From the IMG/VR virus record IMGVR_UViG_3300036832_001138, positions 1-64,000 of that record: 64,000 bases of DNA, one strand, 5' to 3'. The position numbers and the translations under genes are program-made. Positions 2,820 through 56,868 of the stretch are shown piece after piece; within the stretch, counting starts at the first letter, position 1; each line of letters begins with the position of its first letter. The notes beneath the pieces were generated by a model that saw only the letters and a list, made by a program, of their open reading frames with translations, ran no database searches and was not told where the DNA came from. The DNA is from a virus.

Positions 2820-2914
2820 GCGCCCGGCAGTCACCGTTTGGAGTTCACATCATTCCTGGCCGGGCGCGGCGGTCGCACGAACGCGATGGAGTTCAGAAGA
2901 ATAATGGCGACCGC
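2820..2914 (-). ncRNA. Orphan TIGR-like mini-array (2 guide units)
   Basis: gcgcccgg-ca-gtcaccgtt-tggagttca-catcattcc-tgg-ccgggcgc-g-gcggtcg-ca-cgaacgcga-tggagttca-gaagaataa-tgg-cgaccgc; same architecture as the 53.7-56.1 kb arrays. Confidence 0.9.
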
Positions 2915-4561: not shown

Positions 4562-5431
4562 ATGGTCGCCAAGCTCATCAGGCACAAGTTTCAATCGGCC
4601 GTCGCTGACGGTACCGATGCGACGCTCGTGCGACCGTCTGTCTGGAACGGTGATGCGCATGATTTCAAGCTCGGCGGGCGCACCGTCGTGGTGTTGACGG
4701 ATACGATTGTCAACGCCGACGAATGGAGCCTGATCAAATACAATCGTCCTGGTCAAAATATAGCCGTTTCGCTCGCCGCGCCTGACGCTAACAATTTTCA
4801 GGCGGGATGGACGACATTCCTGCGCAACATCAACTCAGGCATCGCCACCATCACGACTCCGGCCTTGATCCAATTTGGCATGGGATCAATCAGTTCGCTC
4901 AATCTTCGTCAGGGAGAAGATTTGATCCTGACATCGGATGGCACGAATTACGACGTGCTGTGGTCATCGGGCTCGCTATTTGCGCGGGCGGGACAAATAC
5001 CGGGGACGGCGACAAACGACAACGCGGCGGCGGGCAATGTCGGCGAGTTTCTGTTCTCCGTTGTCCCAAGCGGTTCAGGGCCGGGTCTTGTTAGCAGCAC
5101 TGCGGTGGCCGTCGCTGGTGTCAATCTCACGCCGGGGGATTGGGACGTGCAGGCCATGATTGGGTTTGTTGGCGGCGCTGCGACGCAGGTGGCCTATGCG
5201 ATTGGTTCGCTATCAACGGCGCAGGGTGGGATAACGGGCGGCTATGGTTCGGTGTGGCAGGCGTATTACAACGCCGGGCCATTCAGTTCTATCGGCAGCA
5301 TCATGCTGCCGATATCGTCAGTACGATATACCCCCACTAGCACGACAACCGTTTGGTTGAACGCGCAGGTGGGCTTTACTCCTGGCTCAGTCAGCGCCTT
5401 CGGCACCATCCGCGCGCGCAGGGTGCGCTGA
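4562..5431 (+). CDS. Putative tail fibre/receptor-binding paralog 1
   Basis: First of three TGATG-coupled paralogs sharing 'HKFQxAxADGxDATLVRP' and 'GQIPGTxxNDNAAxGNVG', ending in 'RRxR'. Confidence 0.6.
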   Translation: MVAKLIRHKFQSAVADGTDATLVRPSVWNGDAHDFKLGGRTVVVLTDTIVNADEWSLIKYNRPGQNIAVSLAAPDANNFQAGWTTFLRNINSGIATITTPALIQFGMGSISSLNLRQGEDLILTSDGTNYDVLWSSGSLFARAGQIPGTATNDNAAAGNVGEFLFSVVPSGSGPGLVSSTAVAVAGVNLTPGDWDVQAMIGFVGGAATQVAYAIGSLSTAQGGITGGYGSVWQAYYNAGPFSSIGSIMLPISSVRYTPTSTTTVWLNAQVGFTPGSVSAFGTIRARRVR

Positions 5432-6288: not shown

Positions 6289-7169
6289 TGGTAGCAAAGA
6301 TTTTCAAGCACAAGTTTCAGTCAGCGATTGCGGATGGCGCTGATGCGACGCTCGTGCGGCCGCAGGCGAATTGGAATCTCGACGATCATGATTGGCGATT
6401 TGGCAGCCGCACGGTCACGGCGGCGACCGATGCTATCGTCAATGCCGATGAAATGAGCCTGATCAAATACAACAGGTCATCGGCAATCGCTGTTTCCATC
6501 GCGTCGCCGGATGCCAATAACTTTGTACCCGGATGGCTCACGTTCGTGCGCAACATCGGTGTGGGCTTGGTCACGATCACGGCCGCTGGCACAGCAGTGT
6601 TTAATCGTGGATTGGATTCATCAAGCTTTCTCTACCTTCGTCAAGGCGAGGATGCATTCATCATATCTGACGGCACGAATTACGATGCAATCGTTCGGTC
6701 CGGCTCGCTGTTCAATCGACGCGGCCAGATTCCAGGGACGACAGGAAACGACAACGCGGCGACGGGGAATGTCGGCAACACTCTTAGCGCTTCCAACGGG
6801 CCGTTCGGACTCACGTCAAATGTAATTACCAGCACTAATGCATTCTCTTTAGGCCCCGGCGATTGGGATTGTGATGCAACGATGTCATTCAGCACGGTAT
6901 CGGGCAATGAGCCAAACACCTACGTCGATTATATTACTGGTTTTTTCAATCTCGATACTTATGGCCAAGGATATGGACAGCAGCAATTTGCGGTGCCCTT
7001 GTTTCACAGCCAGCCTTTTCTCTTTATTAACAGCCTTGGGTTCGTGCTACCGACCGCACGAGTTTTGGTGCCAGTTGGCGCGACTTCCGGCGTGTTTATG
7101 GCCGCGCAGGCTGGCTTTGCTGGCCCCTTACAATTCACTTGGTACGCGTCATATCGGCGGGTTCGCTGA
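6288..7169 (+). CDS. Putative tail fibre/receptor-binding paralog 3
   Basis: Start MVAKIFKHKF overlaps the previous stop; same blocks, with a more divergent C-terminal domain. Confidence 0.6.
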   Translation: MVAKIFKHKFQSAIADGADATLVRPQANWNLDDHDWRFGSRTVTAATDAIVNADEMSLIKYNRSSAIAVSIASPDANNFVPGWLTFVRNIGVGLVTITAAGTAVFNRGLDSSSFLYLRQGEDAFIISDGTNYDAIVRSGSLFNRRGQIPGTTGNDNAATGNVGNTLSASNGPFGLTSNVITSTNAFSLGPGDWDCDATMSFSTVSGNEPNTYVDYITGFFNLDTYGQGYGQQQFAVPLFHSQPFLFINSLGFVLPTARVLVPVGATSGVFMAAQAGFAGPLQFTWYASYRRVR

Positions 7170-8674
7170 TGTCCGGCCCGACTGCATTCCAACCTAATGC
7201 CTTTCAGGCGAATGCGTTTCAGACCGCCGTCCCGCTGACGGTTAATGCCTATTCGCTCGGCGCGCTGCAAATCGGCATCCCATCGCTGACGGTCAAGCGC
7301 GTTCTGTCCGCCAACGCCTACTCGCTCGGCTCGCCCGCCTTCGCCGCGCCGCCGCTCAAAGCGGTTGTTATCTTCACGGCCCCCGTGGCGTACTCGCTCG
7401 GTTCGCCGAGCTTCGCCAAACCGGCTCTATTTAGCTGGACGCGGATCGTCGCGGGCGATTACTCGCTCGGCTCGCCGAGCTTTGCGACGCCGCCGCTCAC
7501 GCGCATTGTCGTCTTCGGCAAGCCCGCGGCGTATTCGCTCGGCTCGCCCGCATTTGCCACACCGGCTCTGAAAATTATCGGCTTCGCATTTCATGCGAAC
7601 CCGTATTCGCTCGGCTCGCCGTCATTCGCATCGCCGTTTGTCCGCTTCACGCAAAAGTTCACGGCGCGATCGCTCACGCTCGGATCGCCGACATTTGCCA
7701 CGCCGCAACTGACGCAAACGCATCGGTTCTTTACCAACACGATGGCGCTCGGCTCGCCGAGCTTCGACCGACCAAGCGTCAGGATGAACTATCGCCTTGT
7801 ACCGGCGGCGTTCGATGTCGGCAGTCTCGACATTGCGTCGACCCCGCCCGTGCTTGAGATCACCACGCTATTCAAAGCGAATGCCTATTCGCTCGGTAGC
7901 CCGAGCTTCGGCTTCCCGCGGTTGCAAACGCAAGCCGTCACGCCGCCATGGCCGCCGAGCTATTTGACTCAAGTTGAGTCAGCGACCGATCTGCTCGTTG
8001 GCTTCGTCAACGCGGTGTTGCGCAGCATACCCGACACCTCGACTGACGTTGCGCAAACCGCGTTGCAGCTTGGGGCACAACTTCGTGCCAATGCGACCAA
8101 CATCATTCGCGGCAATACGCTTGGCACGCTACTCAATAACTTCCTGCTCGCGGCTGATGCTGCGGGCGCAACCTATGGCGGTATCGAGGAAGCGCGCAAA
8201 TATCTGATGAGCTTTAGCGGAAGCCCGCAAGTGTTTACGCAAATCGTCATGCGCTCGGCGCTCGTGATGACGCTTGGCCTCGAAAGCAAAATCATTTCGC
8301 GCATGACATTCTCGACGCAAGCGCAAGCGCAAACAATGGTCATGGCCGTGCAGACGATGTTTGATGACGCCAAGGCGATCGGGATCGATACCATCGATGC
8401 GCTGGTTTATGAAAACCTGATTGCGTTGGCCGGTGCAATCATGAACCACCTCGCGACGACGGCATTGCAGCTTCCGCGCTACGTGGAATATCGCAGCGGC
8501 CTACCGATGCCGAGCCTTTATCTCGCCAATCGCGTCTACGGCGACGCCAGCCGGTTCGAAGAAATCGAGCGCGAGAACGGCGTGATTAATCCCGCATTCT
8601 GTCCGCGCACATTGCGCGTCTTGTCGGATGCGGAAATCGTTCCGCTACCGGGAGGGCCCTACCGGGCAAGCTGA
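7169..8674 (+). CDS. YSLGSP-repeat protein fused to a Mu gpN-like C-terminal region
   Basis: About 10 repeats of ~25 aa (xYSLGSPxFAxPxL). C-terminal 'LPMPSLYLANRVYGDASRFEEIERENGVINPAFCP' resembles the end of DNA circulation proteins. Confidence 0.6.
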   Translation: MSGPTAFQPNAFQANAFQTAVPLTVNAYSLGALQIGIPSLTVKRVLSANAYSLGSPAFAAPPLKAVVIFTAPVAYSLGSPSFAKPALFSWTRIVAGDYSLGSPSFATPPLTRIVVFGKPAAYSLGSPAFATPALKIIGFAFHANPYSLGSPSFASPFVRFTQKFTARSLTLGSPTFATPQLTQTHRFFTNTMALGSPSFDRPSVRMNYRLVPAAFDVGSLDIASTPPVLEITTLFKANAYSLGSPSFGFPRLQTQAVTPPWPPSYLTQVESATDLLVGFVNAVLRSIPDTSTDVAQTALQLGAQLRANATNIIRGNTLGTLLNNFLLAADAAGATYGGIEEARKYLMSFSGSPQVFTQIVMRSALVMTLGLESKIISRMTFSTQAQAQTMVMAVQTMFDDAKAIGIDTIDALVYENLIALAGAIMNHLATTALQLPRYVEYRSGLPMPSLYLANRVYGDASRFEEIERENGVINPAFCPRTLRVLSDAEIVPLPGGPYRAS

Positions 8675-9205: not shown

Positions 9206-10309
9206 ATGCCGTGGGTCACGCCAACGTTGCAGCAATGCCGCGAGATCGTGCGCGACGATATCACCGCGTCTTTGCAGGGCGCGGCCGTGGTCGGCAACAC
9301 GGTGCTGCGCGTTATGTCCGATGCGATGGCGGGGATCGGCGCGCTCGTGCTGCGATACGAGGATTGGCAGGCGCGGCAATTGATGGTCGACCAAGCCGAG
9401 AAGGAATGGCTCGATCGGCACGGGAACATATGGCTCGTGAACGCCGACGGCACGACCGGCCGCAAGGGCGCGACCACGGCATCCGGTACGGTAACCTTCA
9501 CGGGCGTTGCAGGCGTGACCGTTGCCGCGGGCACCGAGCTTGTGTCACCTGACGGGCAGGCGTTTTACGATACGCTGGAATTCATCACGCTCGGCACGGC
9601 ACCGGTCGAGGTTGCCGTTCGCGCGACGACCGCCGGGGCGGCGGGCAACATACCCGCGGGCACCGCGCTGGCGCTGACCGTTCCGGAATCCGGCGTCGAT
9701 AGTGCGGTCATCGTCGTCGATCTGCGCGGCGGTGAGGAAGTCGAGAGCGATGACGAACTCCGCGCGCGCGTGCTCGCGCGTATCCGCCAGCCACCGATGG
9801 GCGGCTGCGCTTACGATTACGAGCATTGGGCGATGAGCATTCCGAGCGTGACGCGTGCATGGTGCGCGCCGCGCGAGATGGGAATGGGCACCGTGACGGT
9901 GCGATTCATGTGCGACGCGTTGCGGCCGGAAACCAGCGGCATCCCGACGCAAGACGATATCAATATCGTGCGCAACTATCTCGACACGGTGCGCCCGGTC
10001 GCGGTGCGAGATTTCTTCGTTGAAGCGCCCGTGCCCGAGCCGATCAATTTCAATCTCGCGCTCAAACAGGATTCTCTCGCGCTGCGCGGGCAAGTGCAAG
10101 CGTCAGTCGCGGCGATGATCAGCGAGAAGGCCGCGCCCGCGCACCAAGTCGACGGCGAGCTTGTGGCGGGCACGACGATTCTCGCATCGTGGGTTGCGGA
10201 GGCGATCAACCGCTGCACGAATGATTTCACGCTCGATATGCAAGATCATCCCATGCCGCACAACGGGGCAATCGGGGTACTCGGTGCGATCAGCTATCCG
10301 ATTCCGTAG
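9206..10309 (+). CDS. Baseplate J / Mu gp47-like protein
   Basis: 'WLDRHG...RKGATTASG', 'GGEEVESDDELRARVLARIRQPPMGGCAYDYEHWA', 'GMGTVTV'. Confidence 0.9.
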   Translation: MPWVTPTLQQCREIVRDDITASLQGAAVVGNTVLRVMSDAMAGIGALVLRYEDWQARQLMVDQAEKEWLDRHGNIWLVNADGTTGRKGATTASGTVTFTGVAGVTVAAGTELVSPDGQAFYDTLEFITLGTAPVEVAVRATTAGAAGNIPAGTALALTVPESGVDSAVIVVDLRGGEEVESDDELRARVLARIRQPPMGGCAYDYEHWAMSIPSVTRAWCAPREMGMGTVTVRFMCDALRPETSGIPTQDDINIVRNYLDTVRPVAVRDFFVEAPVPEPINFNLALKQDSLALRGQVQASVAAMISEKAAPAHQVDGELVAGTTILASWVAEAINRCTNDFTLDMQDHPMPHNGAIGVLGAISYPIP

Positions 10310-10319
10310 AGAGAAGGGC

Positions 10320-10369
10320 GAGCCCCGGCAGTCACGCTCTGGAGTTCATGAATTCGATGGCCGGGGCTC
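10320..10369 (-). ncRNA. Orphan TIGR-like guide unit
   Basis: gagccccgg-ca-gtcacgctc-tggagttca-tgaattcga-tgg-ccggggctc, intergenic between baseplate J and the gp48-like gene. Confidence 0.88.
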
Positions 10370-11512: not shown

Positions 11513-12847
11513 ATGAAATATTCGCAGCCGTTCGGCACGCCCGATCCACCGCTCGGAACCTACCCGAGATTCGTTAACGGGAATCCCGTGACGGGCACCG
11601 AGGGCTCGATCCCTCCGGCGACCGCGTTCGACGAAGACCAAATCGAGATCATCACCGTTATCCAAAACGCTGGTCTAACGCCGGATCACGGCGACCTGAC
11701 TCAGCTATGGCAAGCGTTGATGGCGCTGTTTGCGCAGAAGTACATCACCACGCCAATCACCAAGACGATACACGGCGCGGGCGCGGATTTTCCTGATTTG
11801 ATTGCGGCGTTTAATTGGGTCGCGCAATACATCATCACGCCGACGGGTAGCGTCACGTTTCTTTGCGCGTCGGGGACATGGAATTACACGCAAACCGTCG
11901 AGGTTAATCACCCGAACGCCGATCGCATTGTCGTCACTGGCCCTGCGCTTACCGGAGCTTCGCCAGCGCAGAATCAACTCTCTGTCACGTGGCCGATCAC
12001 CGGCACGTCGCGGCAGACCGACGGCACCAATCAGCACAATCAGTTGAAGGGCATTTACGCGTGCGAGCTTAGCTTTCTTGGCGGCGTGAGCGGGTTTCGC
12101 GTCTACCGCGGCGGCGTGACCATTCGCTATCTCTTGATCAGCGGGACGCAAACGGTCGCGCAACCGCACGCGGGCGATCCCGGCGGCTGCGGCATCTGTG
12201 CATTTGCCACCGTGGTGCTCGACGGCACGGCGGTATGGGGCTTCGGCAATCATGGTTATTACAGTCAAGGCGGCGCATTTTTATCCTACACATCGCTTTC
12301 GATCATTGCGTCGTTTTGCAATTCATGTGGCTTTTGGACCTTCGGCGGGTTGATCTCGTTTCTGTCCAATCAAAACGTTATCAGCACCTCACACGGCTCT
12401 TGCGCGTTTGCCTGTTTCGGCACCGAGGTCTATTCCGGTATTGTCGATGCGCGCGGGATCGCGACACCGAAAACCGTTGCGGGCGGCGGTGCGTCTAACG
12501 TTGGCGCGGTCACGGTCGAGCAGGGCACGCAATTCATGATGGGGGCGGGAAGCCTTGTGCGCTACTGCAACAACCAGGGCTGCACCGTCGCCGACTGCTC
12601 GACGCTGCAACTCAGCGGCAGCACGGTGATGGATTGCAGCGTTTGGCAGATTTGGATGAACAACGGCGTATGTTGGGCGGAGGGCTCAAATATTCAGCAA
12701 ACCGCGGGCACGGTCTATCCCAACGGCGGCGTTGCGGTTCTGCAAAACGGTGCACAGCTTTCGTTGCTCGGTGCTGTTGTCGGCGGCAGCGTCTTCCCGA
12801 CGCCCAACACGTACAACATGGCGAACAATTCTTTCGTGCGCATGTAA
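11513..12847 (+). CDS. Tail fibre/tailspike protein (probable beta-helix)
   Basis: N-terminal 'EIITVIQNAGLTPDHGDLTQLWQAL' is a Mu-type fibre attachment motif; beta-helix-like C-terminal region. Confidence 0.75.
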   Translation: MKYSQPFGTPDPPLGTYPRFVNGNPVTGTEGSIPPATAFDEDQIEIITVIQNAGLTPDHGDLTQLWQALMALFAQKYITTPITKTIHGAGADFPDLIAAFNWVAQYIITPTGSVTFLCASGTWNYTQTVEVNHPNADRIVVTGPALTGASPAQNQLSVTWPITGTSRQTDGTNQHNQLKGIYACELSFLGGVSGFRVYRGGVTIRYLLISGTQTVAQPHAGDPGGCGICAFATVVLDGTAVWGFGNHGYYSQGGAFLSYTSLSIIASFCNSCGFWTFGGLISFLSNQNVISTSHGSCAFACFGTEVYSGIVDARGIATPKTVAGGGASNVGAVTVEQGTQFMMGAGSLVRYCNNQGCTVADCSTLQLSGSTVMDCSVWQIWMNNGVCWAEGSNIQQTAGTVYPNGGVAVLQNGAQLSLLGAVVGGSVFPTPNTYNMANNSFVRM

Positions 12848-14863: not shown

Positions 14864-14915
14864 GTGATCCGGGCATCAGGTTATTGGAGTTCATAGGTCG
14901 CGTGGCCGGGATCAC
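14864..14915 (-). ncRNA. Orphan TIGR-like guide unit
   Basis: gtgatccggg-ca-tcaggttat-tggagttca-taggtcgcg-tgg-ccgggatcac; new stem sequence but the same boxes and 9-nt spacers. Confidence 0.85.
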
Positions 14916-40882: not shown

Positions 40883-41461
40883 TCATTCAGTCTGCCATCC
40901 GCTCGGTCGTGTTGGATCGTCATGGGGGCGTGGCGGCTCGTGCCGTCCTTTATCCTTAGCAAGAGCGAGAAGTTCGCTCACATCTTGCACACGCATCACC
41001 TTCTCAATTATCTTGTTAAGGTCGACGCGCAGCGAGCGTATTTCATGCTCAATTTGGTCGAGTCGGGAAGGGGCCTCGCGCGTTCGCTCCCCGCTATCCA
41101 CACGTCTTTCCAGCGCTAAAATTCGCCGAGCGAGCACAGCGGGATGCAATTCCATCGCTTCGAGCACGCGCATGCGCTCGCGCATGTTCTCTATCGACCC
41201 TTCGGCCCGGTTCAAGGCGTCGAGCGCAGCCGATATCTGCAACGCCAAATGCTCGGCTCGCGGGACGATGCTCTTGTGGACGAAATTTTCCAAGCGGCGA
41301 TGCTGCTCGTCGAGCACTTCGGCCGCGGCGCGGTCGCCCCATCGCTGCCAATTCGGCAGATCAACCGGGACAAGCCGCGTACCCTGCGCTCGCAAGGTGC
41401 GTGGCGGCGTGAAGCCGGTAATCTTGCGCTTGATCTTCCGTTTTCGCTTTTTCATTTGCAT
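40883..41461 (-). CDS. Basic N-terminus coiled-coil protein (near-target of two guides)
   Basis: SD aggagtc; 192 aa. Confidence 0.6.
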   Translation of the reverse strand: MQMKKRKRKIKRKITGFTPPRTLRAQGTRLVPVDLPNWQRWGDRAAAEVLDEQHRRLENFVHKSIVPRAEHLALQISAALDALNRAEGSIENMRERMRVLEAMELHPAVLARRILALERRVDSGERTREAPSRLDQIEHEIRSLRVDLNKIIEKVMRVQDVSELLALAKDKGRHEPPRPHDDPTRPSGWQTE

Positions 41462-41561: not shown

Positions 41562-44500
41562 TCATGACGGATCGACGCCGCCAATTCGCAGATGGTCGAG
41601 CGCTTTCGCGAGGCATAACTGCGCTGCATAGGCGCGCAGGAGCTTGGCCGTTAGTTCGAATTCTCGGGCGCTGCCCGGCTGGTCGCGATCGCGCGCCTCT
41701 TTCGCCCATACTTCGCGCTCCGCGGCAAGCGTGAGTGCTTCGTCGGCGGCTTTCGGCAATTCTGCCGGAGTGTATTTGGTGGGGATCACGGCCATCATAC
41801 AAACTTCGGTGCGTGTTGTTTTTCGTAATCGTCGAGGATCGATTCCATGATCCGGATGCGCTCGGCGGCTTCGTGCGGCGTCATCTTGTCGTCACGCACA
41901 AACCGCGGGTAAACGCCGCGACGCATCGCAAGCTCGCGCCTGATCTCGGATATCTTTTGTTCCAGCGTGTAGCTCAAATCCAAATCTCCGCGATCTTCGG
42001 GTCGTCGAGCGGGTGACGTTCCATGCGCACCAAACCGCGCGGTATCTTGCCGCGCACTTCGTCGAGCGTGAGCCCAACAAATACCGCTCCGGTTGCCTCT
42101 GTGCGTCCGCGGCCGAGAAGCCACTTTCGCGCGACGTAAAACGTGGGCAGGTCGAGCGGATGGTCATAGATCACCCATAGCGGCAGATCGTTTGTCATCG
42201 CCATTCCGATATCGGCGTCGGATCGAGTAGCGATCGCGGGGTGAATGTTTCCATTAGAAAGCGCCACACGCGTGGAAACAGATCAACCGCCGCACGCATC
42301 GGTTTTGGTTCGGTTACTGGTTGCGCACCATTATCACTGCGCACAGCGCGAGCCCGATCATCGATCCGAACAGAATCAGCAACTCGGGGGGTAGGTGCGC
42401 GAGCATCGGGTTGCCTCCAATAGAGCATCGACTTCGGCATGGTCGCGCGGCCGACGAACCAACATCGCTTCTGATCGATCTCGCGCCAACTCCAATACTC
42501 GCGCGACATGGGCCGCTCGCTGCACGCGATGCGCCCTTGCCCGTGCGCAGGCAAATCGGCAATGAGCATGAACGCGAAGCTTGCGGCCATCGGCGCGAAT
42601 CTCACGTCTTAGTCCGGCGCTGGTAGAAGTGGCTGCATCGTGCCGCTCTCATAGATTTCGGCGATGCGCGGCGCGGCAGTCTCGTAAACCGTCTTGCCAT
42701 CGGGCATGACGATGTGAGCGAAAAACGCTTGCTCGAATGTCTCGATACGGCTGGCGACACTTTCGAGCTTGGCTTTGATGCAAAGAAGTAACGCGCGCCA
42801 GCGCTGCCGCCGCTCTTGCGCGATTTTATCGCCCGCGCCTTCCGGCAACGGCAAGAGAAACCGCACGCGGCGGTTCTTGGCTTCGAACATCACGATGGCG
42901 CGTCCCGGTTCGATGACCAGCCCAAATTTGTCGGCACCATAGCGCGCAACGGCCGCTTCGATTTCCGCTTTGGATTGATTTTCCGGAACACGGGTGCGCT
43001 CGGCATATCGGCTCACGCGATATCCTCAATTTTGAATTCGAGATGCATTCCGTCATTCGATTGCACGTTCGCGCGATAGCCGTGCGCGTTGAGCGTGCGG
43101 TTCACGAGCGAAAAAAGCTTCACGTCGACAAGATAGGATTCATTGGCCGCGTGAAGCTCGGCGATGATTTGCGCGACGGGGATCATCCCATCCTCTGCGA
43201 ACTTGAATGTCACTCCATCCGCTCCGTCGCCGCTGCCCACGACGCGGCTTCCGCTTGAAGCTCGTTGATGCGTTCCACGAGTTCGGCATTTCGTTCTTGT
43301 AGTTGCGGCACGATGTCTGCCAAGTGCTGCATACGTTGCACTTCCGCGATGCTGGCGGGATCACCGAACACGTTGAAGCCCGACCATGACAGGCCCGCGA
43401 ATTCGAGGTTGGCGGCAGTGAGTGCATCGGTGAATTCCCCCGGTGGAATACGCTCACGATTTTTCATGCGTGCTTCTCTGATCAGTTGTTGCCAGAAACC
43501 GGCTTCGTTTTCGATGTCCTGACGCGTGACCACTTATTGCATCTTCGCTGTGCGACGCGGCAGCATGCCCACAAGCCGACCTTGCGATGTTGGCCTCAAT
43601 TGATGATCCATGAATTCGAGCGGGGCGAGCGTCGGCTTGCCGGTTTCGCGGATGATGCGGCGATGCGCCACCATCATGCCGCCTTCGCTATCTTCGCCCA
43701 TGAACGCGATGACTTCGACGCGATTAGGGAAATCAGCGATGGTCCCGCCTCTCTCGATCCATTCTTTCGCTCCGCCGCCCGTCGCGGTCCATGCCTCATC
43801 GATGAACAGGCAGCACACCACGTCGTTAAGCTCGAAGAACGCGCGCATGATGGCCACGCTCGTATCCTTGTCGCCGGACGGCGGCATAACCACCGCATGC
43901 TCGCCGTTGGCTTTGACCACGTGCCACATCGGACGAACCGCGCCCGTTTCCGCAAAGCGATCCTGCGCCCAAGTTGACGCATGCTCGATCATTTCGCGAA
44001 GCTGCGCGGTGCTCATTTGAAATCGCCGGTTGTCTGATCGACGCGCGGATCACTCCGGCGCGGTGGCGCTTTGGCAACGCTGGCGATGCGATCGAGCGCC
44101 GAGCGCATGTCGGTGATGCCTTGACTCACGTGCGAATGCCGCGCCGCTTCGGCGCTGGCGATCTCGGTCAAGACGTTGGCGGCTTCTTCCGCATTCTCTC
44201 TTGGGACGGCGCGGAGCTTGGTCACTTCATTGGCGGCATGCTCGATTGTCTGCCGCGCCTCGTCGCCCAACTGTGCCATGCGTTTGGCGAACGTGTCGCC
44301 GATCTCGCGTAGCTGTTTGGCGACAGTCTCGCCTTCTCTGATCTCTTGATCGGAGATCGCGCGGATTTTGTCGGCCGCTTTGATGCATGCATCCATGACG
44401 CTATTTGCTGCCGCAGGCACGCCGCCGTTGCCGCGCTTGAGTTCATCGCTCGTAAGCTTGGCGAATTCCCGTTCCATCGATTGCGCTAGATCGTGATCAG

Positions 44501-50703: not shown

Positions 50704-52848
50704 GTGATGCTGGAGATCGAGCCCATAGCTCGCGCATTGCTCGGCGAGCCCAACGCGAAGCTATCTTCGCAATTCGAATGGCGATATGGCAACCGCGGCT
50801 CGCTTTCAATCGATCTGCGCAAGAATGTTTGGCACGACCACGAAACCGACGAGAGCGGCGGATGCCTCGATCTGATCACTCACAAGACCGGACTCGACGG
50901 CCCGGAGCGTGCGCAATGGATGCACGATCGCGGCATCGGCAATGGATACGATCAAACGACCAAGCGCCCGGAGATCGTGGCGACGTTTCCCTATAATGAC
51001 GAATACGGCAAGGAGCTTTTTCAGGTTGTCAAATTCGAGCCGAAGGATTTCCGCCAGCGGCGGCAAGACAAGACCGCGCCCGGCGGCTATCGCTGGTCGG
51101 TCAAGGGCGTGCGGCGAATTCCCTATCGCCTCGACGATTTGTCAGAAAAAATCGAAGGGCGCATTTTCATCGCCGAAGGCGAAAAAGACGTTGATACGCT
51201 TTGGCGGCACAACATTCCAGCGACGTGCAATGCCGGGGGCGCAGGCAAGTGGCATCCCGAACTCACCGAATTTTTCCGCAACAAGACCGACAACGTAGTT
51301 GTACTGCCCGATCGTGATCCGCCGAAGAAAGACCCAAAGACCGGCGCGGAAATGAAGCACGAGGATGGGCGGTTCATTCGGCCGGGGCAAGACCACGCAC
51401 AAGAGATCGCGGCAGAGATGCATCGCATTGGCGTACCCGTGCGCGTGGTCGAGCTTTGGCGCGATTGGCCGGAGATGCCCGAGAAGGGTGACGTAACCGA
51501 TTGGTTCGATCATGGCGGCACGGCCGACCGGCTACAGAAAATTGTTCAAGACGCCCCATTTTGGAAACCGGGCGATCAAGCTGACGACGGCGCGCTGCTC
51601 AAGCTCCAATCCGTGTTTCCGATCAACGAGCGCGCACTCCCAACGCGCAATTGGATCATGCCAGGACTTTTAATGCGGCGTCAGGTAACCGTGTTGGTAG
51701 CACCAAGTGGTGTGGGCAAAAGTTTGCTCACGCTGCAATTAGGTATCGCCTGTGCACAAGGCCGAAAATGGAGCGGTTGGACTCCGCGCCGTACATTCAA
51801 CGTGCTGTTTATCAACTCGGAAGATGACTATTTCGAAATCTGCCGCAGGCTCGCCGCGGCCACGCAAAGGATGCGACTCGGCGCACATAACGAATTCGAA
51901 ATTGATCAGCTAGGAATCGCCGATCGCTTCCATATCGCCGATGCCGAGCAGAGCGGTACTGTTGTTGCCAAGTTTGACGCACGAACCAAAACGCTCGTGA
52001 GCACACCGTTGCACGATCAACTGATCGAAACAATAAAAGCCAACCAAATCGATGTGGTCTTCGTCGATCCGTTTGCCGAGACTTTCGAGGGCGACGAAAA
52101 TTCCAATAGCGAATTGAAGTGGGCGGGCGCGTTATGGCGCAAGGTTGCGCGGCAAACCGATGCTGCGGTTTGTCTCGTGCATCATACAAAAAAATATGCA
52201 AGCGGGCTGCAAGGTGACGTTGATGCGGCGCGCGGTGCTGGTGCGCTGATCGGAATCGCGCGCATTGTCTCGACGCTATTTCCGATGACGCCGAAGGAAG
52301 CGGAAGCGATGGGCGTCAAGCTCGGAGATAGGTCGCTCTATTTGCGATACGATGATGCGAAAGCAAATCTGAATTTGGTTTCTCCGTTTGCGCGCTGGTT
52401 TCAAAAGACCACGATCACGCTCGACAATGCATGCGGCGATCCTAACAGCGACGACTTTGTGCCCGGCGACGAAGTGGGCGTGCTCAATCCATGGAAGCCT
52501 GAAACGAAAGACGTGCACGAAGCTCAGATCATCGGATTTTTCAAGGCGATCGATCGCGGCATGGTCGACGATGCTGATCAACCGACCGGCGAATTCTGGA
52601 CCTTCAAAAAGGGCAAGAGCGGCGCGAGATACGTCGGCTACCTCGCGCAAAGCTTTTTCAAATGCGATGCGCTCTCGCAAGCCGAAGCGCTGATCCGCAA
52701 GTGGGAAGGCACAAGATTGAAAACGATTCAATTCAAGGCGCGGAACGGTCACCTTCGTGATCGCGTCGTGAGCGAGCTTTCCCCCGACTTCCCGCGCCCC
52801 GAGGCCGCGCCGATCGAGCCGATGGCACAGCTTTTTCCTGCCGAATAG
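50704..52848 (+). CDS. Primase-helicase (TOPRIM + AAA_25/RepA-like helicase)
   Basis: TOPRIM 'IFIAEGEKD...LPDRD', 'KGDVTDW'; Walker A APSGVGKS; 'VFVDP', 'LVHHTKK', 'ARGAGAL'. Confidence 0.9.
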   Translation: MMLEIEPIARALLGEPNAKLSSQFEWRYGNRGSLSIDLRKNVWHDHETDESGGCLDLITHKTGLDGPERAQWMHDRGIGNGYDQTTKRPEIVATFPYNDEYGKELFQVVKFEPKDFRQRRQDKTAPGGYRWSVKGVRRIPYRLDDLSEKIEGRIFIAEGEKDVDTLWRHNIPATCNAGGAGKWHPELTEFFRNKTDNVVVLPDRDPPKKDPKTGAEMKHEDGRFIRPGQDHAQEIAAEMHRIGVPVRVVELWRDWPEMPEKGDVTDWFDHGGTADRLQKIVQDAPFWKPGDQADDGALLKLQSVFPINERALPTRNWIMPGLLMRRQVTVLVAPSGVGKSLLTLQLGIACAQGRKWSGWTPRRTFNVLFINSEDDYFEICRRLAAATQRMRLGAHNEFEIDQLGIADRFHIADAEQSGTVVAKFDARTKTLVSTPLHDQLIETIKANQIDVVFVDPFAETFEGDENSNSELKWAGALWRKVARQTDAAVCLVHHTKKYASGLQGDVDAARGAGALIGIARIVSTLFPMTPKEAEAMGVKLGDRSLYLRYDDAKANLNLVSPFARWFQKTTITLDNACGDPNSDDFVPGDEVGVLNPWKPETKDVHEAQIIGFFKAIDRGMVDDADQPTGEFWTFKKGKSGARYVGYLAQSFFKCDALSQAEALIRKWEGTRLKTIQFKARNGHLRDRVVSELSPDFPRPEAAPIEPMAQLFPAE

Positions 52849-53647
52849 GTTCGTCAACGGCGACGCGACGCCATTCGCTCAGCAAATCTTTGAGAAATTG
52901 TTTCATCGTGATGCGCAGCGCATCTTTGCGCCGATGGCCGTCGGTCCAATCCGGGTGCGCTTTCTTGGTGTAGGCGCGGCGCTTAGCATAGATTTCGCCA
53001 TAGTGGCCCTTTGGCTTGCCTTCGCCGCCGGTTTTCTTTGCGCCAATCCACTGCGCGTTCACGAGCCACGTCGCGATCTGTGCCATCAGCGCATAGCGCT
53101 CCCCGGAAAAAGGATTTTCGATCCATTCGTCGGCGCTCAGCGCGCGCGGTCGCCACGTCGTGCGTTTCCACGTTGATCCGGCGTGGCCGTCGTATGGTGC
53201 GAAGCCGAGCCGCTTCCATAACTTGCTCGGCTTGGAATAATTCGAGAGATCGCCAGCTTCGGCGACGATGGTCGCGAGCCCGAGCGCGCCTGCGCCGTGA
53301 ATCTTTTCGATCCATGGATAAACCGGTAGCTCGCACGCGGCAGCCTCCATTCGCTTTTCCGTGGCAGCACGCCGTTCATCAGCGGGCGCACGCGCAGGAT
53401 CGCATACCTGCAACACTTCTTCCGCCAGCGGATGCGCTTCGCCCTCGCGAATGCGCTTGATAATTTCGCGCACCTCGCGGTTCGATTTCTCGCGCTCGGC
53501 ATCGCTGGCGTTAGGATTCCATTTGGTGCCATTGATACGAATGAAGCTTTCGAGCGAGCGGTCAAGTTTCTGTTGCACTTTCATTGCGAACCGTCGCTTT
53601 CGATGCAGGCCGCGGATCAATTCGATGGTTTCGGATTGTTGGGTCAT
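52733..53647 (-). CDS. TIGR-associated Nop-domain protein without a nuclease domain (TasA-like)
   Basis: 'IHGAGALGLATIVAEAGDLSNYSKPSKLWKRLGFAP' and 'GHYGEIY..RR...HRRKDALRITMKQFLKDL' resemble the IS110/Nop RNA-binding region; starts at the coiled coil with no DEDD-RuvC or HNH; directly downstream of the array. Confidence 0.8.
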   Translation of the reverse strand: MTQQSETIELIRGLHRKRRFAMKVQQKLDRSLESFIRINGTKWNPNASDAEREKSNREVREIIKRIREGEAHPLAEEVLQVCDPARAPADERRAATEKRMEAAACELPVYPWIEKIHGAGALGLATIVAEAGDLSNYSKPSKLWKRLGFAPYDGHAGSTWKRTTWRPRALSADEWIENPFSGERYALMAQIATWLVNAQWIGAKKTGGEGKPKGHYGEIYAKRRAYTKKAHPDWTDGHRRKDALRITMKQFLKDLLSEWRRVAVDEPIRQEKAVPSARSARPRGAGSRGKARSRRDHEGDRSAP

Positions 53648-53676
53648 TTGTTGTGGTTCCTATTTGTGAGTTAGGT

Positions 53677-54214
53677 GCGAGCCCGGCAACCGGTCAATGG
53701 AGTTCACGATCGCCTTGGCCGGGCTCGCGGCGGTCGCAAGCGGCGTGTGGAGTTCACAGACGTGATGGCGACCGCATTGGTGGATTAGGGTGCGAGCCCG
53801 GCACTCGCGATATGGAGTTCAAGTGCTGGTAGGCCGGGCTCGCGGCGGTCGCAACGCAACGTTGGAGTTCACATGATCTTTGGCGACCGCATTCGAGAAT
53901 AGAGCGCCCGGCATGCCGTTTGTGGAGTTCAATCACGTGCTGGCCGGGCGCGGCGGTCGCACGGAGGCGCTGGAGTTCACGATCTACATGGCGACCGCAT
54001 CGGTGGATTGGGTGCGAGCCCGGCATTGGCCGACAGGAGTTCAACCCTTTCCTGGCCGGGCTCGCTACGGTCGCATTGCGCGCGTGGAGTTCACTCAGAT
54101 CGTGGCGACCGCAAAAGGTGCGCCCGGCAGCGTTGTCATGGAGCACACAAGTGTTTTGGCCGGGCGCGGCGGTCGCAACCGCTCCGTGGAGTTCACTACT
54201 GTTTTGGCGACCGC
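53677..54214 (-). ncRNA. TIGR-like stem-loop guide array, proximal (10 units)
   Basis: Minus strand unit: stem-CCA-N9-TGAACTCCA-N9-TG-stem'; stems alternate between GCGGTCG and GCG(A)GCCCGG; all spacer pairs differ. Confidence 0.9.
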
Positions 54215-54226
54215 ATTTCGTGAATA

Positions 54227-54898
54227 TCATGACCGTGCATCGCCCTCGATTTCTGACGGCTTGCGCGCGGCGGCGATCAGATCGCTTGCGACCTTCGCCG
54301 AGCCGTCGCGGATCACTTCGACGGCTTTGATCCTAGCGTCGTTATAGTATTGCACGGCAATCTTGAGCGGTATCACCTTCTCGACTTCGCCGTGCGGATC
54401 GGCGGCGACGCAATAGTCATTCAACCGCCGGATTGCGATCGCGTCGACTGCATCATCATAACCGCGCTGTAGGAAATCTCCGGCCGTGTTTGCCAGATTT
54501 TCCGCGATGGCGCGCAATTCGTGTACGCGCAGCTTCCCAAGCGGACCATAACCACGGATTTTGCGGTTGAATATCTCGGCGGCGACGGCTTGCCCGGCGG
54601 CGATCGCTCCCGCCTTTTGCGCGTCGGTGGGTGTGCGGAGCAGACTGCTCCGGCGATGCTTGCCCTCGCGGCGGCGCGCGGCGGGCTTCGGGTGCGCGAT
54701 CCGCGGTAGCTTCGTTTCGCTCGACGGCGACGACAAGCGCGACAGGTAATCAGCAACGAGCGCGATAAGCAGCGGCCGCTTCGCATTGTCCATCAACGCG
54801 CGTGCCAGCGTCGGTGCGGCTTTGTTCACACTATTGTTGCTGGCGCGCAGCGCTTCGATCGCGGCGTCGCGGAGCTTATCGAGATCAGAGGCGGCCAT
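54227..54898 (-). CDS. Hypothetical helical protein embedded between the two arrays
   Basis: 223-aa ORF with SD gaagga; it fills the gap between the arrays exactly. Confidence 0.7.
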   Translation of the reverse strand: MAASDLDKLRDAAIEALRASNNSVNKAAPTLARALMDNAKRPLLIALVADYLSRLSSPSSETKLPRIAHPKPAARRREGKHRRSSLLRTPTDAQKAGAIAAGQAVAAEIFNRKIRGYGPLGKLRVHELRAIAENLANTAGDFLQRGYDDAVDAIAIRRLNDYCVAADPHGEVEKVIPLKIAVQYYNDARIKAVEVIRDGSAKVASDLIAAARKPSEIEGDARS

Positions 54899-54929
54899 GT
54901 GTTTGGTGTCCTTCTCGTTTGAAAAAAGT

Positions 54930-56121
54930 GCGAGCCCGGCAAGTGGTGACTGGAGTCCACGTCGGATCAGGCCGGGCTCGCGGCGGTCGCAGAATTGTTT
55001 TGGAGTTCACCAAGGCACTGGCGACCGCATTCGAGATAAGAGCGCCCGGCAGGCTACATTTGGAGTTCATAGGGCCAATGGCCGGGCGCGGCGGTCGCAG
55101 CGCAAGATTGGAGTTCACGTGATCTTTGGCGACCGCATTCGAGGGAAAGAGTGCGCCCGGCAGAGCTTCACAGGAGTTCACGCCGAATTTGGCCGGGCGC
55201 GGCGGTCGCATCTCGTCGTTGGAGTTCAATCGTGTGCTGGCGACCGCATTTCGAATAGGTGCGCCCGGCAGAAGCCGGTTGGAGTTCAGGCCAGCATTGG
55301 CCGGGCGCGGCGGTCGCACGACACCAATGGAGTGCAAGGGAGAACAGGCGACCGCATTCGAGATGGGTGCGCCCGGCAGGTCATCGTTGGAGTTCACGTG
55401 CTTGATGGCCGGGCGCGGCGGTCGCAATCTCTGGATGGAGTTCATACAAATGCTGGCGACCGCATTCGGGTGAAAGAGAGCGCCCGGCATTTCCATTTTG
55501 GAGTTCAACTGATCGCTGGCCGGGCGCGGCGGTCGCATTCCAAACCTGGAGTTCATCAGCTTACTGGCGACCGCAGTCGGTTTGATAGGTGCGCCCGGCA
55601 AGGCGATGTTGGAGTTCATATTGCCGGTGGCCGGGCGCGGCGGTCGCAGATAGGTGCAGGAGTTCACACCCGAATTGGCGACCGCGTTGGTGATAGGTGC
55701 GCCCGGCAATGATTGCTTGGAGTTCATCATGAAGGTGGCCGGGCGCGGCGGTCGCAGCGTGGCGTTGGAGTTCACGGGATCAGTGGCGACCGCGTTCGTT
55801 GTGATAGGTGCGCCCGGCAGACAGCGATCGGAGTGCACGTTCACCAGGGCCGGGCGCGGCGGTCGCAGTGGCAGTATGGAGTTCATTCGGCACCTGGCGA
55901 CCGCATTCGAGAATAGAGCGCCCGGCACGCCTCCCTTGGAGATCAATGCCGAAATGGCCGGGCGCGGCGGTCGCATCCTCGATCTGGAGTGCATCAGTGG
56001 CATGGCGACCGCGTTCGTGAAAAGGTGCGCCCGGCAGACGAGTTCTGGAGTTCACGACTACGATGGCCGGGCGCGGCGGTCGCACCTTGAACTTGGAGTT
56101 CAACCACGTCGTGGCGACCGC
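54930..56121 (-). ncRNA. TIGR-like stem-loop guide array, distal (22 units)
   Basis: Eleven two-hairpin modules (~105-115 bp period); same CCA/TG boxes, 9-nt spacers and 9-nt loop repeat. Confidence 0.92.
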
Positions 56122-56129
56122 ATGCCAAA

Positions 56130-56159
56130 CATATACGGGCCATCGGCCTAACGTGTCAA
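56130..56159 (-). promoter_or_regulatory. Sigma70 promoter driving the array-tas operon, with operator variant
   Basis: TTGACA-N18-TATATG; the predicted start site falls at the first stem; the spacer holds AGGCCGATGGCCC. Confidence 0.8.
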
Positions 56160-56174
56160 TGTGACGAAAATCAC

Positions 56175-56201
56175 AAAAAAAGAGCCGCCCCGAAGGGCGG
56201 C
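56175..56201 (-). terminator. Intrinsic terminator insulating the TIGR promoter
   Basis: gccgccc-ttcg-gggcggc-tcttttttt on the - strand. Confidence 0.8.
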
Positions 56202-56208
56202 CCGAGCT

Positions 56209-56868
56209 TTAGCTTAGATCGAGCGTGCGGCCTGCGATCGTGGGGGCCGCGAGTTGTTTCGCTTCGCCGAGATCGAGCCGTCGCTTCGCCATTCGCGAGG
56301 CTTTGATCGCGTCGCGCTGGCGTAGCGATTTCTCGTAATACTTCTTTCGTAACTTGAGCTTGCGCAGTTTCGTCTTAGCGAGCTTTTCCTTTCGCTCCCA
56401 CGCGGCGATCAACTCAACCGTGCGCGCGTAGCGTGCTTGTTGCCGGTCCGTCGGCGGCTTCGCCTTCGCGCGGGCGAGCTTTCCGTCGAGCCATCCCGAC
56501 TTGACCACGTACTCCGCGAGCCTGCGCTCGATATACGCATGTTGCGGAGCGTGCGGCCCGAGCCGATTGCGGTCATAAAGGCGATTGAATGCCCAATGAC
56601 TTATATCGTGCACGATCCCTTTCCATCCGCTGAAACTCGGATGGCGATAGGCCGGGTTGACGTAGAACACGCCGCCACGAGTCCAAGTGCGCCGGTTGCC
56701 CGACGTTGGTTTGAACTTTCCGCGGAACTTGCGTTTCGGCGAGTTCGCCGGACCGAGCGAGAGGGCGAGTCTGACGAGCTTGCGCGCGCCAGCGATCGCC
56801 TCCTGCGGTGTGGGGGCCCGCGCATCCGCGGGCCATGCGGCATTGACGTTTTGATAGTTCGTTGGCAT
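56209..56868 (-). CDS. Hypothetical protein with a zincin-like HDxxH...H motif
   Basis: 'IVHDISHW...GPHAPQH'; basic coiled-coil C-terminus. Confidence 0.6.
   Translation of the reverse strand: MPTNYQNVNAAWPADARAPTPQEAIAGARKLVRLALSLGPANSPKRKFRGKFKPTSGNRRTWTRGGVFYVNPAYRHPSFSGWKGIVHDISHWAFNRLYDRNRLGPHAPQHAYIERRLAEYVVKSGWLDGKLARAKAKPPTDRQQARYARTVELIAAWERKEKLAKTKLRKLKLRKKYYEKSLRQRDAIKASRMAKRRLDLGEAKQLAAPTIAGRTLDLS

What the first reader, a model, noticed from the sequence alone, without database searches (positions are those of the whole stretch)
55640..55685. A guide that spells the TIGR array linker itself
Seen: this unit predicts target ATTCGGGTGATAGGTGC. Its left half occurs exactly in the linker at 55464-55472 and its right half in linkers at 55584, 55692 and 55803, but no linker here has the whole 17-mer (best 12/17). 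Inference: the guide targets the array of a competing relative (anti-TIGR targeting) while avoiding self, or it records acquisition from array DNA.
Basis: partly seen in the sequence, partly recalled or inferred. Interest (0 to 1): 0.8.

Follow-up and report, generated by a model that had tools for sequence, protein, structure and literature searches.

The report
Phage guide RNA aimed at TIGR-array linker
One guide RNA in a soil phage's TIGR array is written to recognise the short linker DNA that joins guide units in arrays of its own kind, which suggests that related phages may turn these RNA-guided systems against each other's arrays.

Summary
Unit 55640-55685 is a canonical stem-loop TIGR unit. 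Its two 9-nt spacers, joined as A + revcomp(B) with a 1-bp overlap, give ATTCGGGTGATAGGTGC. That 17-mer is the consensus linker of array 54930-56121.

I calibrated this geometry independently on 18 related IMG/VR phage contigs:
- Only this orientation and offset gives near-exact natural targets: 11 guide-site pairs with at most 1 mismatch, against 0-3 at other offsets and in controls.
- The last base of spacer A complements the last base of spacer B in 125 of 248 guides, against 24.5% expected.

The guide is the only 1 of 436 with both halves exactly present in linkers.

No array examined carries the full target. The best match is 15/18, at the guide's own neighbouring linker 55575 and at one relative's linker. 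The exact hits elsewhere are at chance level.

Two other guides in the family spell array stems or junctions and match rival arrays at 16/17. Another matches a rival tas gene exactly.

Best reading (about 0.4): a nuclease-free TasA is guided to linkers of a closely related rival array, and the phage's own array is spared. The rivals are a spacer copied from the phage's own array, and autoregulation. This is a new variant of a known system.

The parts
55640..55685 (-). The tigRNA unit in question. The terminal stem is 55640-55647 with 55678-55685. RNA-sense spacer A is the reverse complement of 55667-55675. The loop with box D and box C is 55658-55666. Spacer B is the reverse complement of 55649-55657.
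   Evidence: It folds with the 8-bp terminal stem plus an extra 6-bp inner helix between the two spacers, -23.3 kcal/mol.
54930..56121 (-). TIGR stem-loop array 1. It holds 22 units that alternate between two stem types, and 10 long linkers.
55575..55592 (.). The phage's own linker (plus GC of the next stem) that is closest to the guide's target: 15/18 with abutting halves. The spacer B side matches 9/9 and the spacer A side 6/9.
55464..55479 (.). The phage's own linker that carries the exact left half ATTCGGGTG. It is the only one of 133 linkers in the data set to do so.
55686..55700 (.). The linker directly beside the unit (plus GC of the next stem). It carries the exact right half GATAGGTGC.
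55794..55811 (.). The next linker (plus GC of the next stem). It also carries the exact right half.
53677..54214 (-). TIGR array 2, with 10 units, between the companion gene and tas.
52733..53647 (-). The tas gene, 304 aa. The product is all-helical with a Nop/IS110-type RNA-binding fold and shows no nuclease domain, so it is TasA-like.
   Evidence: Pfam PF02371 gives 20.8 bits, just under the 21.3 cut-off. PHROG 4285 gives E 8e-14. AlphaFold2 mean pLDDT is 66.7, helices only. The top Foldseek hits are TasH-tigRNA complexes (probability 1.00, TM 0.59-0.63 on the target), followed by ISCro4 and IS621.
54227..54898 (-). Companion gene between the two arrays, 223 aa. It has no family match. Homologues sit just upstream of tas in G001, G002, G003, G006 and G011.
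56182..56203 (-). Terminator-like hairpin that closes the upstream gene, just before array 1 in tas sense.

Best explanation
The unit encodes a working tigRNA of a phage-borne, stem-loop TIGR system with a nuclease-free TasA.

How it recognises DNA: spacer A pairs with one DNA strand and spacer B with the other, and the two share the central base pair. The recognised site is therefore a 17-bp duplex. For this guide that site is a linker variant (15 nt plus the first GC of the next stem) of the 'ATTCG...GATAGGT' linker family that separates double-hairpin modules in these arrays.

What it most likely does: it sends TasA to the array of a very closely related rival phage that carries this linker variant. 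Bound TasA would act there as a roadblock on transcription of the rival's pre-tigRNA and of the tas gene downstream. The phage's own 14 linkers differ by at least 3 positions and are spared.

What is shown: the unit's anatomy, the targeting geometry, that the target is a linker of this family, and that other guides in the family hit rival tas genes and rival arrays.

What is inferred: that the RNA is made, that TasA binds, that binding represses, and that a rival with this exact linker exists.
For: 1. Canonical unit. CCA-N9-UG-N4-CCN-N9-UG between 8-bp stems is found in 38 of 38 units of the genome. [quoted passage not shown]

2. Geometry calibrated without this guide.
- In 17 non-redundant contigs, A + revcomp(B) at offset -1 gives 11 guide-site pairs with at most 1 mismatch of 18 positions, 3 of them exact. 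Every other offset gives 0-3, and the reversed or swapped controls give 0-2.
- The enlarged set gives 2 exact, 17 with 1 mismatch and 118 with 2 mismatches outside arrays. The reversed control gives 0, 1 and 44.
- A9 complements B9 in 125 of 248 guides against 24.5% expected, p about 2e-18, and in 208 of 436 in the larger set. No other position pair exceeds 0.37.

3. The target is a linker. The TRF consensus holds it. Both halves are exact in linkers for 1 of 436 guides, against 0 of 436 reversed. The right half occurs in 9 of 133 linkers, including other phages'.

4. Guides of this family hit relatives, including their TIGR loci.
- The G014 guide hits the tas 5' region of G007, G008 and G015 exactly, while the best site in its own locus has 4 mismatches.
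- A G004 guide hits G002 exactly and the 5' end of the companion gene of G003 with 1 mismatch.
- Another G004 guide hits the junction plus type-2 stem at 6 sites in three rival arrays at 16/17. Its own contig matches 15/17, with the extra mismatch at B5. Position 5 is the disruptive one and position 1 the tolerated one in SpTasH (PMC13421893, passages).
- The L228 guide hits stem plus box C plus the first 4 spacer bases of an L203 unit.

5. Tas lacks a nuclease fold. TasA and dead TasR repress transcription (10.64898/2026.09.09.750476, abstract and Discussion).
Against: - No array with the exact target, or a target with 2 mismatches or fewer, was found. That covers 18 whole contigs plus 45 loci, one IMG/VR exact scan, and 119 metagenome hits with none in an array.
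- The left half is known only from the phage's own array. The four best-matching linkers are the four that flank the unit. Both facts fit an origin in its own lineage as well as, or better than, a foreign target.
- Array-directed guides number 3 of 436. Array structural DNA makes up about 1.9% of the genome by my arithmetic. That is no more than random sampling of a relative's genome would give, so nothing shows selection for anti-array guides.
- This guide is not conserved in G001, whose Tas is 73% identical.
- Box C before spacer B is CCU, not CCA, which is so in 3 of 38 units. The two spacers can also pair with each other over 6 bp. Either could weaken loading.
- There are no RNA data. The promoter scan found nothing, so strand and expression rest on motif orientation and on co-orientation with tas.
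Confidence: 0.4

Rival explanations
1. Relic of spacer origin. The two spacers were templated on a linker of the phage's own array, either an ancestral or lost copy, or a product of whatever unknown process makes new TIGR units. The guide has no present target and no selected function. It is a fossil showing that a contiguous 17-bp duplex is split into the two spacers.
For: - The left half is exact only in the phage's own linker, 1 of 133.
- The four nearest linkers are the four best matches, and together they reconstruct the target.
- No foreign target was found.
- A9:B9 complementarity is kept in this guide, as expected for a freshly derived 17-bp protospacer.
- The frequency of array-directed guides, 3 of 436, needs no selection.
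- The literature says the origin of spacers is unknown.
Against: - The two other array-directed guides match rival arrays better than their own.
- The exact natural targets found for other guides are all in other phages, not in the guide's own genome.
- The match stops exactly at the spacer borders and shares no flanks, so simple recombination or slippage does not explain it.
- The unit keeps perfect stems and boxes.
Confidence: 0.27
2. Autoregulation. The guide brings TasA to partly matching linkers of its own array, chiefly 55575-55592. The guide unit lies upstream of that site in tas sense. Binding would throttle read-through into the distal array, the companion gene, array 2 and tas, which makes a negative feedback loop.
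For: - The best site in all the data, 15/18 with 9/9 on the spacer B side, is the phage's own next linker downstream in tas sense.
- TaTasR acted in vivo on a natural site with 9/9 plus 6/9 pairing (PMC12045711, section 6).
- The arrays, the companion gene and tas are co-oriented, and no predicted terminator lies between them on the - strand.
- Near-matches within a guide's own genome exist for other guides: 10319 to 9576 and 55088 to 41421 at 1 mismatch, and G006 9924 to 9644.
- A G001 guide just upstream of tas matches its own tas 5' region with 2 mismatches.
Against: - There are three mismatches in 18, and no evidence that TasA binds such sites.
- No linker-directed guide exists in the other 17 contigs, so this is not a conserved circuit.
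- The target geometry of the family is 17 bp, and at 17 bp the phage's own linkers reach only 12/17.
Confidence: 0.15
3. The true target is an unrelated locus or phage that happens to carry the 17-mer, for example the ORF between terminase and portal on IMG/VR contig L001 (also seen as L111). On this reading the likeness to linkers is coincidental.
For: There are exact 17-mer hits outside arrays: 1 in IMG/VR, and 27 among the 119 metagenome loci returned.
Against: - The hit counts are flat across the four gap lengths, which have equal information: 27, 33, 29 and 30. That is what chance gives.
- L001 shares no DNA or translated similarity with this phage.
- Chance cannot explain both halves sitting at the two ends of real linkers: 1 of 436 guides against 0 of 436 reversed.
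Confidence: 0.05

Closest known systems
Stem-loop TIGR-TasA systems (Faure et al. 2025, PMC12045711; Xu et al. 2026 preprint, 10.64898/2026.09.09.750476)
   Same: - A Nop-fold Tas protein without a nuclease domain.
[quoted passage not shown]
- Subarrays placed around the genes.
- Phage-borne.
- Each spacer reads a different DNA strand.
   Different: - Two alternating conserved stem types form double-hairpin modules joined by 7-18 nt linkers.
- Natural targets can be seen here, and they show a 17-bp site with a shared central base pair and A9:B9 covariation. The 2025 paper reports no covariation between the spacers and an 18-bp site.
- One guide is aimed at the array's own kind of linker.
Virus-borne mini-CRISPR arrays in interviral conflicts (Medvedeva et al. 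2019, PMC6858448; I saw only the search listing and the start of the abstract)
   Same: A virus carries guide arrays whose spacers match closely related viruses, which implies exclusion of competitors by RNA guidance.
   Different: This is a different guide system, with no cas genes and no CRISPR repeats. The effector here probably binds rather than cuts. Here some guides aim at the rival's guide locus itself: the tas gene, array stems and linker.
IS110-family bridge RNA, donor-binding loop (function recalled; the fold relation rests on the Foldseek hits to the IS621 and ISCro4 complexes)
   Same: A guide RNA bound by a related RNA-binding fold has split guide segments that read both strands of a short duplex. 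One loop is complementary to the element's own DNA.
   Different: There is no DEDD/RuvC or serine recombinase domain in this Tas. There are many single-loop units instead of one two-loop RNA. There is no evidence of recombination at linkers.
Nuclease-free CRISPR interference between mobile elements (type IV and type V-M, as cited in the Discussion of PMC12045711)
   Same: RNA-guided binding without cleavage is used by mobile elements against other mobile elements.
   Different: The protein family is unrelated, recognition is single-strand R-loop recognition with a PAM, and adaptation modules are known.

Membership tests
TIGR-Tas, stem-loop class | A Tas protein with a Nop-type RNA-binding domain is encoded beside the array. 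| tested here: met
   Foldseek's five best chains are TasH-tigRNA complexes (probability 1.00, TM 0.59-0.63 on the target), followed by IS621 and ISCro4, Prp31 and box C/D Nop. PF02371 gives 20.8 bits, just under the 21.3 cut-off. PHROG 4285 gives E 8e-14. The model has only moderate confidence, pLDDT 66.7.
TIGR-Tas, stem-loop class | [quoted passage not shown] | tested here: met
   38 of 38 units read stem-CCA-N9-UG-N4-CCN-N9-UG-stem on the tas strand. Box C is CCA in 34 of 38 units at each of its two positions. The same layout holds in 17 related contigs.
TIGR-Tas, stem-loop class | Tandem-spacer targeting: spacer A pairs with one DNA strand and spacer B with the adjacent part of the other strand. 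| tested here: met
   Natural near-exact targets occur only for A + revcomp(B). This is the order that gives the published 3' overhangs (my derivation from passages). The variant here is a 1-bp overlap, supported by A9:B9 covariation in 125 of 248 guides.
TIGR-Tas, stem-loop class | The array is transcribed and processed into single-unit tigRNAs bound by Tas. | not testable with these tools
   No RNA run holds the locus. The only run found is a DNA run that may be the source. The promoter scan found nothing.
TasA (nuclease-lacking Tas) | No HNH or RuvC domain is fused to the Nop domain. | tested here: met
   The model contains helices only, with no beta-rich domain. No nuclease family appears in Pfam or PHROGs. 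Residues 150-186, 201-210 and 266-303 are modelled poorly, so a small disordered insert cannot be judged.
Guide directed against a rival's guide locus ('anti-TIGR') | The target is present in arrays of other phages and absent from the guide's own array. | tested here: inconclusive
   Absence from the guide's own array is met, with at least 3 mismatches. Presence in a rival is not shown. The best foreign sites are 15/18 in G006 and 14/17 in G010.
IS110-type bridge RNA with recombinase | A DEDD (RuvC-like) domain plus a serine recombinase domain, and one RNA with a target loop and a donor loop. | tested here: not met
   There is no PF01548 match and no beta-rich N-terminal domain. The units have a single internal loop and occur 38 times.
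Any curated RNA family | A match to an Rfam covariance model at the gathering score. | tested here: not met
   0 matches in 53500-56300 on both strands.

The most novel reading that the evidence does not exclude
The linker guide is not a weapon but a tool of array growth. By analogy with the donor-binding loop of IS110 bridge RNAs, it would mark linkers of its own array family as the place where TasA opens and bends DNA. Double-hairpin modules could then be excised, duplicated or inserted there by a host or phage recombination activity.

This would explain the solitary and paired modules scattered over the genome (2820-2914, 10320-10369, 14864-14915, 67393-67487). Several of them carry half-linker-like flanks. 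It would also give a first handle on how TIGR arrays expand.
Probability: 0.05. Interest if true: 0.95.

Novelty: new variant of a known kind. Interest (0 to 1): 0.68.

Why it matters
Both TIGR papers I read say that the natural targets and the origin of TIGR spacers are unknown. One reason given is that short spacers give too many false matches (PMC12045711 Discussion; 10.64898/2026.09.09.750476 Discussion).

This phage family offers a way in:
- It has a calibrated 17-bp target rule with an internal covariation signature.
- Some guides match related phages exactly.
- Some guides aim at the rival's tas gene, array stems or linker.

If the linker guide does silence rival arrays, it would be the first case of a TIGR system used against another TIGR system. 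That would point to a conflict between closely related phages that could drive diversification of linkers and stems.

If it is instead a fossil of spacer birth, it shows that one contiguous duplex is split into the two spacers.

Either way the question becomes testable with one protein, one 46-nt unit and a reporter.

Tried and rejected
**Tried, and led nowhere or was limited**

- Chance match. Rejected (1 of 436 guides against 0 of 436 reversed). The window's only site with 3 mismatches or fewer, 42382, is at chance level: expected 0.13, and 11 of 100 shuffles gave at least one.
- An RNA target, that is pairing with the pre-tigRNA linker in the manner of tracrRNA. Rejected. Only spacer A is complementary to the sense linker. 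Spacer B is identical to it, which fits reading of both DNA strands and not RNA pairing.
- Origin by recombination, inversion or slippage between stems. Rejected. The likeness ends exactly at the spacer borders and no flank is shared.
- The opposite order of halves (revcomp(B) + A) and other offsets. No enrichment.
- A recurrent linker-directed guide in relatives. None found among 205 units tested against 49 linkers, nor in the larger set. One L140 guide resembles stem plus linker at 14/17 in the unsupported order, and I treat that as chance.
- Isolated phages. One weak Tas-like hit (26% identity, a Rhizobium phage) and no DNA relative.
- Bacterial and archaeal genomes. No Tas relative and no unit, so the host stays unknown.
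- Metagenome scan.
- Sequencing runs. One DNA run was found, and it may be the source of this contig. It is held as contigs only, and laying it gave no linker variant. Of the 17 contigs laid, 10 were under 90% alike, and some loose ends look like TIGR units of other types. This is at most a weak hint that related arrays share the sample.
- Promoter scan. No hits. A TTGACA-N18-TATATG on the - strand near 56136-56165, seen by eye, fails the tool's criteria.
- Supplementary files of the papers were not opened. Their tables of loci and spacers might already list this family.

Full report
**What is there**

The window is the first 64 kb of a 73,077-bp virus record. Between 53677 and 56121 lie two arrays of hairpin units, array 2 (53677-54214, 10 units) and array 1 (54930-56121, 22 units). 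They flank a 223-aa gene and sit upstream of a 304-aa gene, all in the same orientation on the - strand. Six more units are scattered at 2820-2914, 10320-10369, 14864-14915 and 67393-67487, which makes 38 units in all.

The 304-aa protein is all-helical in an AlphaFold2 model of moderate confidence (pLDDT 66.7). Its best structural matches are TasH-tigRNA complexes (probability 1.00, TM 0.59-0.63 on the target). After those come the IS621 and ISCro4 bridge-RNA recombinases, Prp31 and box C/D Nop proteins. It has a sub-threshold PF02371 match and a PHROG 'transposase' match. No nuclease domain is seen. I therefore call it a TasA-like Tas.

Read on the tas strand, every unit is stem-CCA-N9-UG-N4-CCN-N9-UG-stem. 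This is the box C / box D layout of published tigRNAs (PMC12045711, passages). Two stem types alternate. A type-1 and a type-2 unit are joined by one base, and such pairs are separated by linkers of 7-18 nt. Rfam has no match.

**The observation**

Unit 55640-55685 has RNA-sense spacers AUUCGGGUG (A) and GCACCUAUC (B). Joined as A + revcomp(B) with the last base of each falling on one base pair, they give the 17-mer of the finding.

At 17 bp the best linkers match 12/17. These are exactly the four linkers that flank the unit. The other ten match 5-10/17. With abutting halves, the neighbouring linker 55575-55592 matches 15/18. TRF's consensus of the 111-bp period contains the exact 17-mer between the stems. 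The guide therefore spells the consensus, or a plausible ancestor, of its neighbouring linkers.

Across the family, 1 of 436 distinct guides has both halves exactly present in linkers, against 0 of 436 for reversed guides.

**Is the prediction rule right?**

The published 8-nt 3' overhangs require the order A + revcomp(B). This is my derivation from passages. The two wordings of the cut site in PMC12045711 disagree, so I did not rely on it alone.

I calibrated the rule on relatives. An IMG/VR scan with the Tas protein and with a type-1 unit pattern gave 17 further contigs, G001-G017. G015 is 99.3% identical to G007 and was dropped from the counts.

Scanning all 268 units against all contigs at offsets -4 to +4 gave these results:
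- The order A + revcomp(B) at offset -1 gave 11 guide-site pairs with at most 1 mismatch of 18 compared positions, 3 of them exact.
- Every other offset gave 0-3.
- The swapped order and the reversed controls gave 0-2.

The enlarged set of 436 guides over 1.03 Mb repeats this. Outside arrays there were 2 exact, 17 one-mismatch and 118 two-mismatch pairs, against 0, 1 and 44 for the reversed control. The added loci were fetched around units, so they are biased towards TIGR neighbourhoods.

Independently of any target, the last base of A complements the last base of B in 125 of 248 guides, against 24.5% expected (p about 2e-18). In the larger set the count is 208 of 436. No other pair of positions exceeds 0.37. 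RNA folding cannot explain this pair, because A9 and B9 lie at opposite ends of the unit. A shared central base pair in a 17-bp site does explain it. The finding's guide keeps this complementarity (G and C). The 2025 paper reported no such covariation for dual-repeat arrays, so this is a variant feature.

**What the guides of this family hit**

Exact or one-mismatch sites lie in other phages of the family, often at or beside the TIGR locus.
- A G014 guide matches the 5' part of the tas gene of G007, G008 and G015 exactly. The best site in its own locus has 4 mismatches.
- A G004 guide matches G002 exactly, and matches the 5' end of the companion gene of G003 with one mismatch.
- Guides of G007 and G008 match two inverted sites in G016.
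- Self near-matches also occur. In this phage, unit 10319 matches 9576 in a baseplate gene, and unit 55088 matches 41421, each with one mismatch.

Two further guides spell array structural DNA.
- The first unit of a G004 array matches the type-1/type-2 junction plus the type-2 stem and box C at six sites in G002, G003 and G017 at 16/17. Its own contig reaches 15/17, with the extra mismatch at position 5 of spacer B. In SpTasH a mismatch at position 5 breaks the heteroduplex, while one at position 1 is tolerated (PMC13421893, passages).
- A canonical unit in L228 matches stem, box C and the first four spacer bases of a unit in L203.

**The search for this guide's target**

- The exact 17-mer occurs once in IMG/VR. 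It lies in an ORF between terminase and portal of a contig with no similarity to this phage.
- A gapped pattern covering offsets -1 to +2 found 5 viral loci (4 distinct contexts) and 119 metagenome loci. None is in an array. The counts are flat across the four gap lengths (27, 33, 29, 30), which is what chance gives.
- In 18 whole contigs and 45 further loci, no site has 2 mismatches or fewer. The best are the phage's own linker 55575 and a G006 linker at 15/18, and a G010 linker at 14/17.
- Only about 4% of guides have a site with at most one mismatch in the data at hand, so absence says little.
- The tools warn that records very near this genome may be hidden.
- The right half is common: 9 of 133 linkers, several in other phages. 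The left half is seen only in this phage's own linker at 55464.

**Weighing the readings**

The guide is real, the rule is right, and the target is a linker of this family.

By analogy with the other array-directed and tas-directed guides, I favour targeting of a very close rival's array by a binding-only TasA, at about 0.4. TasA and dead TasR repress transcription in reporter tests (10.64898/2026.09.09.750476).

An origin from the phage's own array with no present function comes second, at about 0.27. The left half and the best matches are the phage's own. Also, three array-directed guides in 436 is no more than random sampling of a relative's genome would give, since array structural DNA is about 1.9% of this genome by my arithmetic.

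Autoregulation through the 15/18 site just downstream in tas sense is possible, at about 0.15. It has a precedent in the 9/9 plus 6/9 site on which TaTasR acted, but it is not conserved in relatives.

An unrelated target is unlikely, at about 0.05.

Three things could weaken the guide's function: the CCU box, a 6-bp helix between the two spacers, and the lack of any RNA evidence.

**Novelty**

TIGR-Tas is known. What I did not find in print are natural targets in relatives, the 17-bp overlapping geometry, and guides aimed at TIGR loci. I searched full text for tigRNA or TIGR-Tas, and for tigRNA together with superinfection, self-targeting, inter-phage, anti-TIGR or natural targets. I also read the Discussions of the two main papers. 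Supplements were not seen.

Noticed in passing
window 2820-2914, 10320-10369, 14864-14915; genome 67393-67487 (beyond the window): There are solitary or paired TIGR units far from the main arrays, all in tas orientation. Two have stems of their own (GAGCCCCGGC and GTGATCCGGGC). The unit at 10320-10369 has a 16/17 site only about 750 bp away, at 9576-9592, inside a baseplate-wedge gene.
   Followed up: partly
all 18 contigs; window units listed: The 3'-terminal bases of spacer A and spacer B are complementary in about half of all guides (125 of 248, and 208 of 436). Natural targets are 17 bp with a shared central base pair, unlike the 18-bp non-overlapping site described for dual-repeat TIGR.
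   Followed up: yes
G014 (L152 2587-2634) against G007 5037-5053, G008 1516-1532 and G015 11517-11533: A guide of one phage matches the 5' coding region of the tas gene of three other contigs exactly. The best site in its own locus has 4 mismatches.
   Followed up: partly
G004 (L139 5011-5056); L228 2009-2060: Two more guides spell array structural DNA. One spells the type-1/type-2 junction plus the type-2 stem. The other spells the stem, box C and the first four spacer bases. Both match rival arrays better than their own.
   Followed up: yes
window 54227-54898 (-): A 223-aa gene with no family match sits between the two arrays. Homologues (26-52% identity) lie directly upstream of tas in G001, G002, G003, G006 and G011. 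A G004 guide matches the 5' end of the G003 copy with one mismatch. It may be a partner of TasA.
   Followed up: partly
window 41421-41437: Unit 55088-55139 has a 17-bp site here with one mismatch, in overlapping ORFs of unknown function. The homologous site in G001 (42437-42453) has two mismatches.
   Followed up: no
window 53842-53893 vs 55088-55139; 53902-53953 vs 55199-55250: Pairs of units in different arrays share one spacer apart from 1-2 bases (AAGATCATG against AAGATCACG, and GCACGTGAT against GCACACGAT), while the other spacer differs. This suggests that half-guides are reused or diverge after duplication.
   Followed up: no
G016 6995-7011 and 7471-7487: The same guide, carried by G007, G008 and G015, matches two sites in G016 that lie in inverted orientation about 480 bp apart (0 and 1 mismatch). 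One sits at the 5' end of a 328-aa ORF. The arrangement looks like a pair of operator-like sites.
   Followed up: no
window 50704-52848 (+): A primase/helicase gene (AAA_25, PHROG 239) converges on tas, which places the TIGR locus in the replication region of the phage.
   Followed up: no
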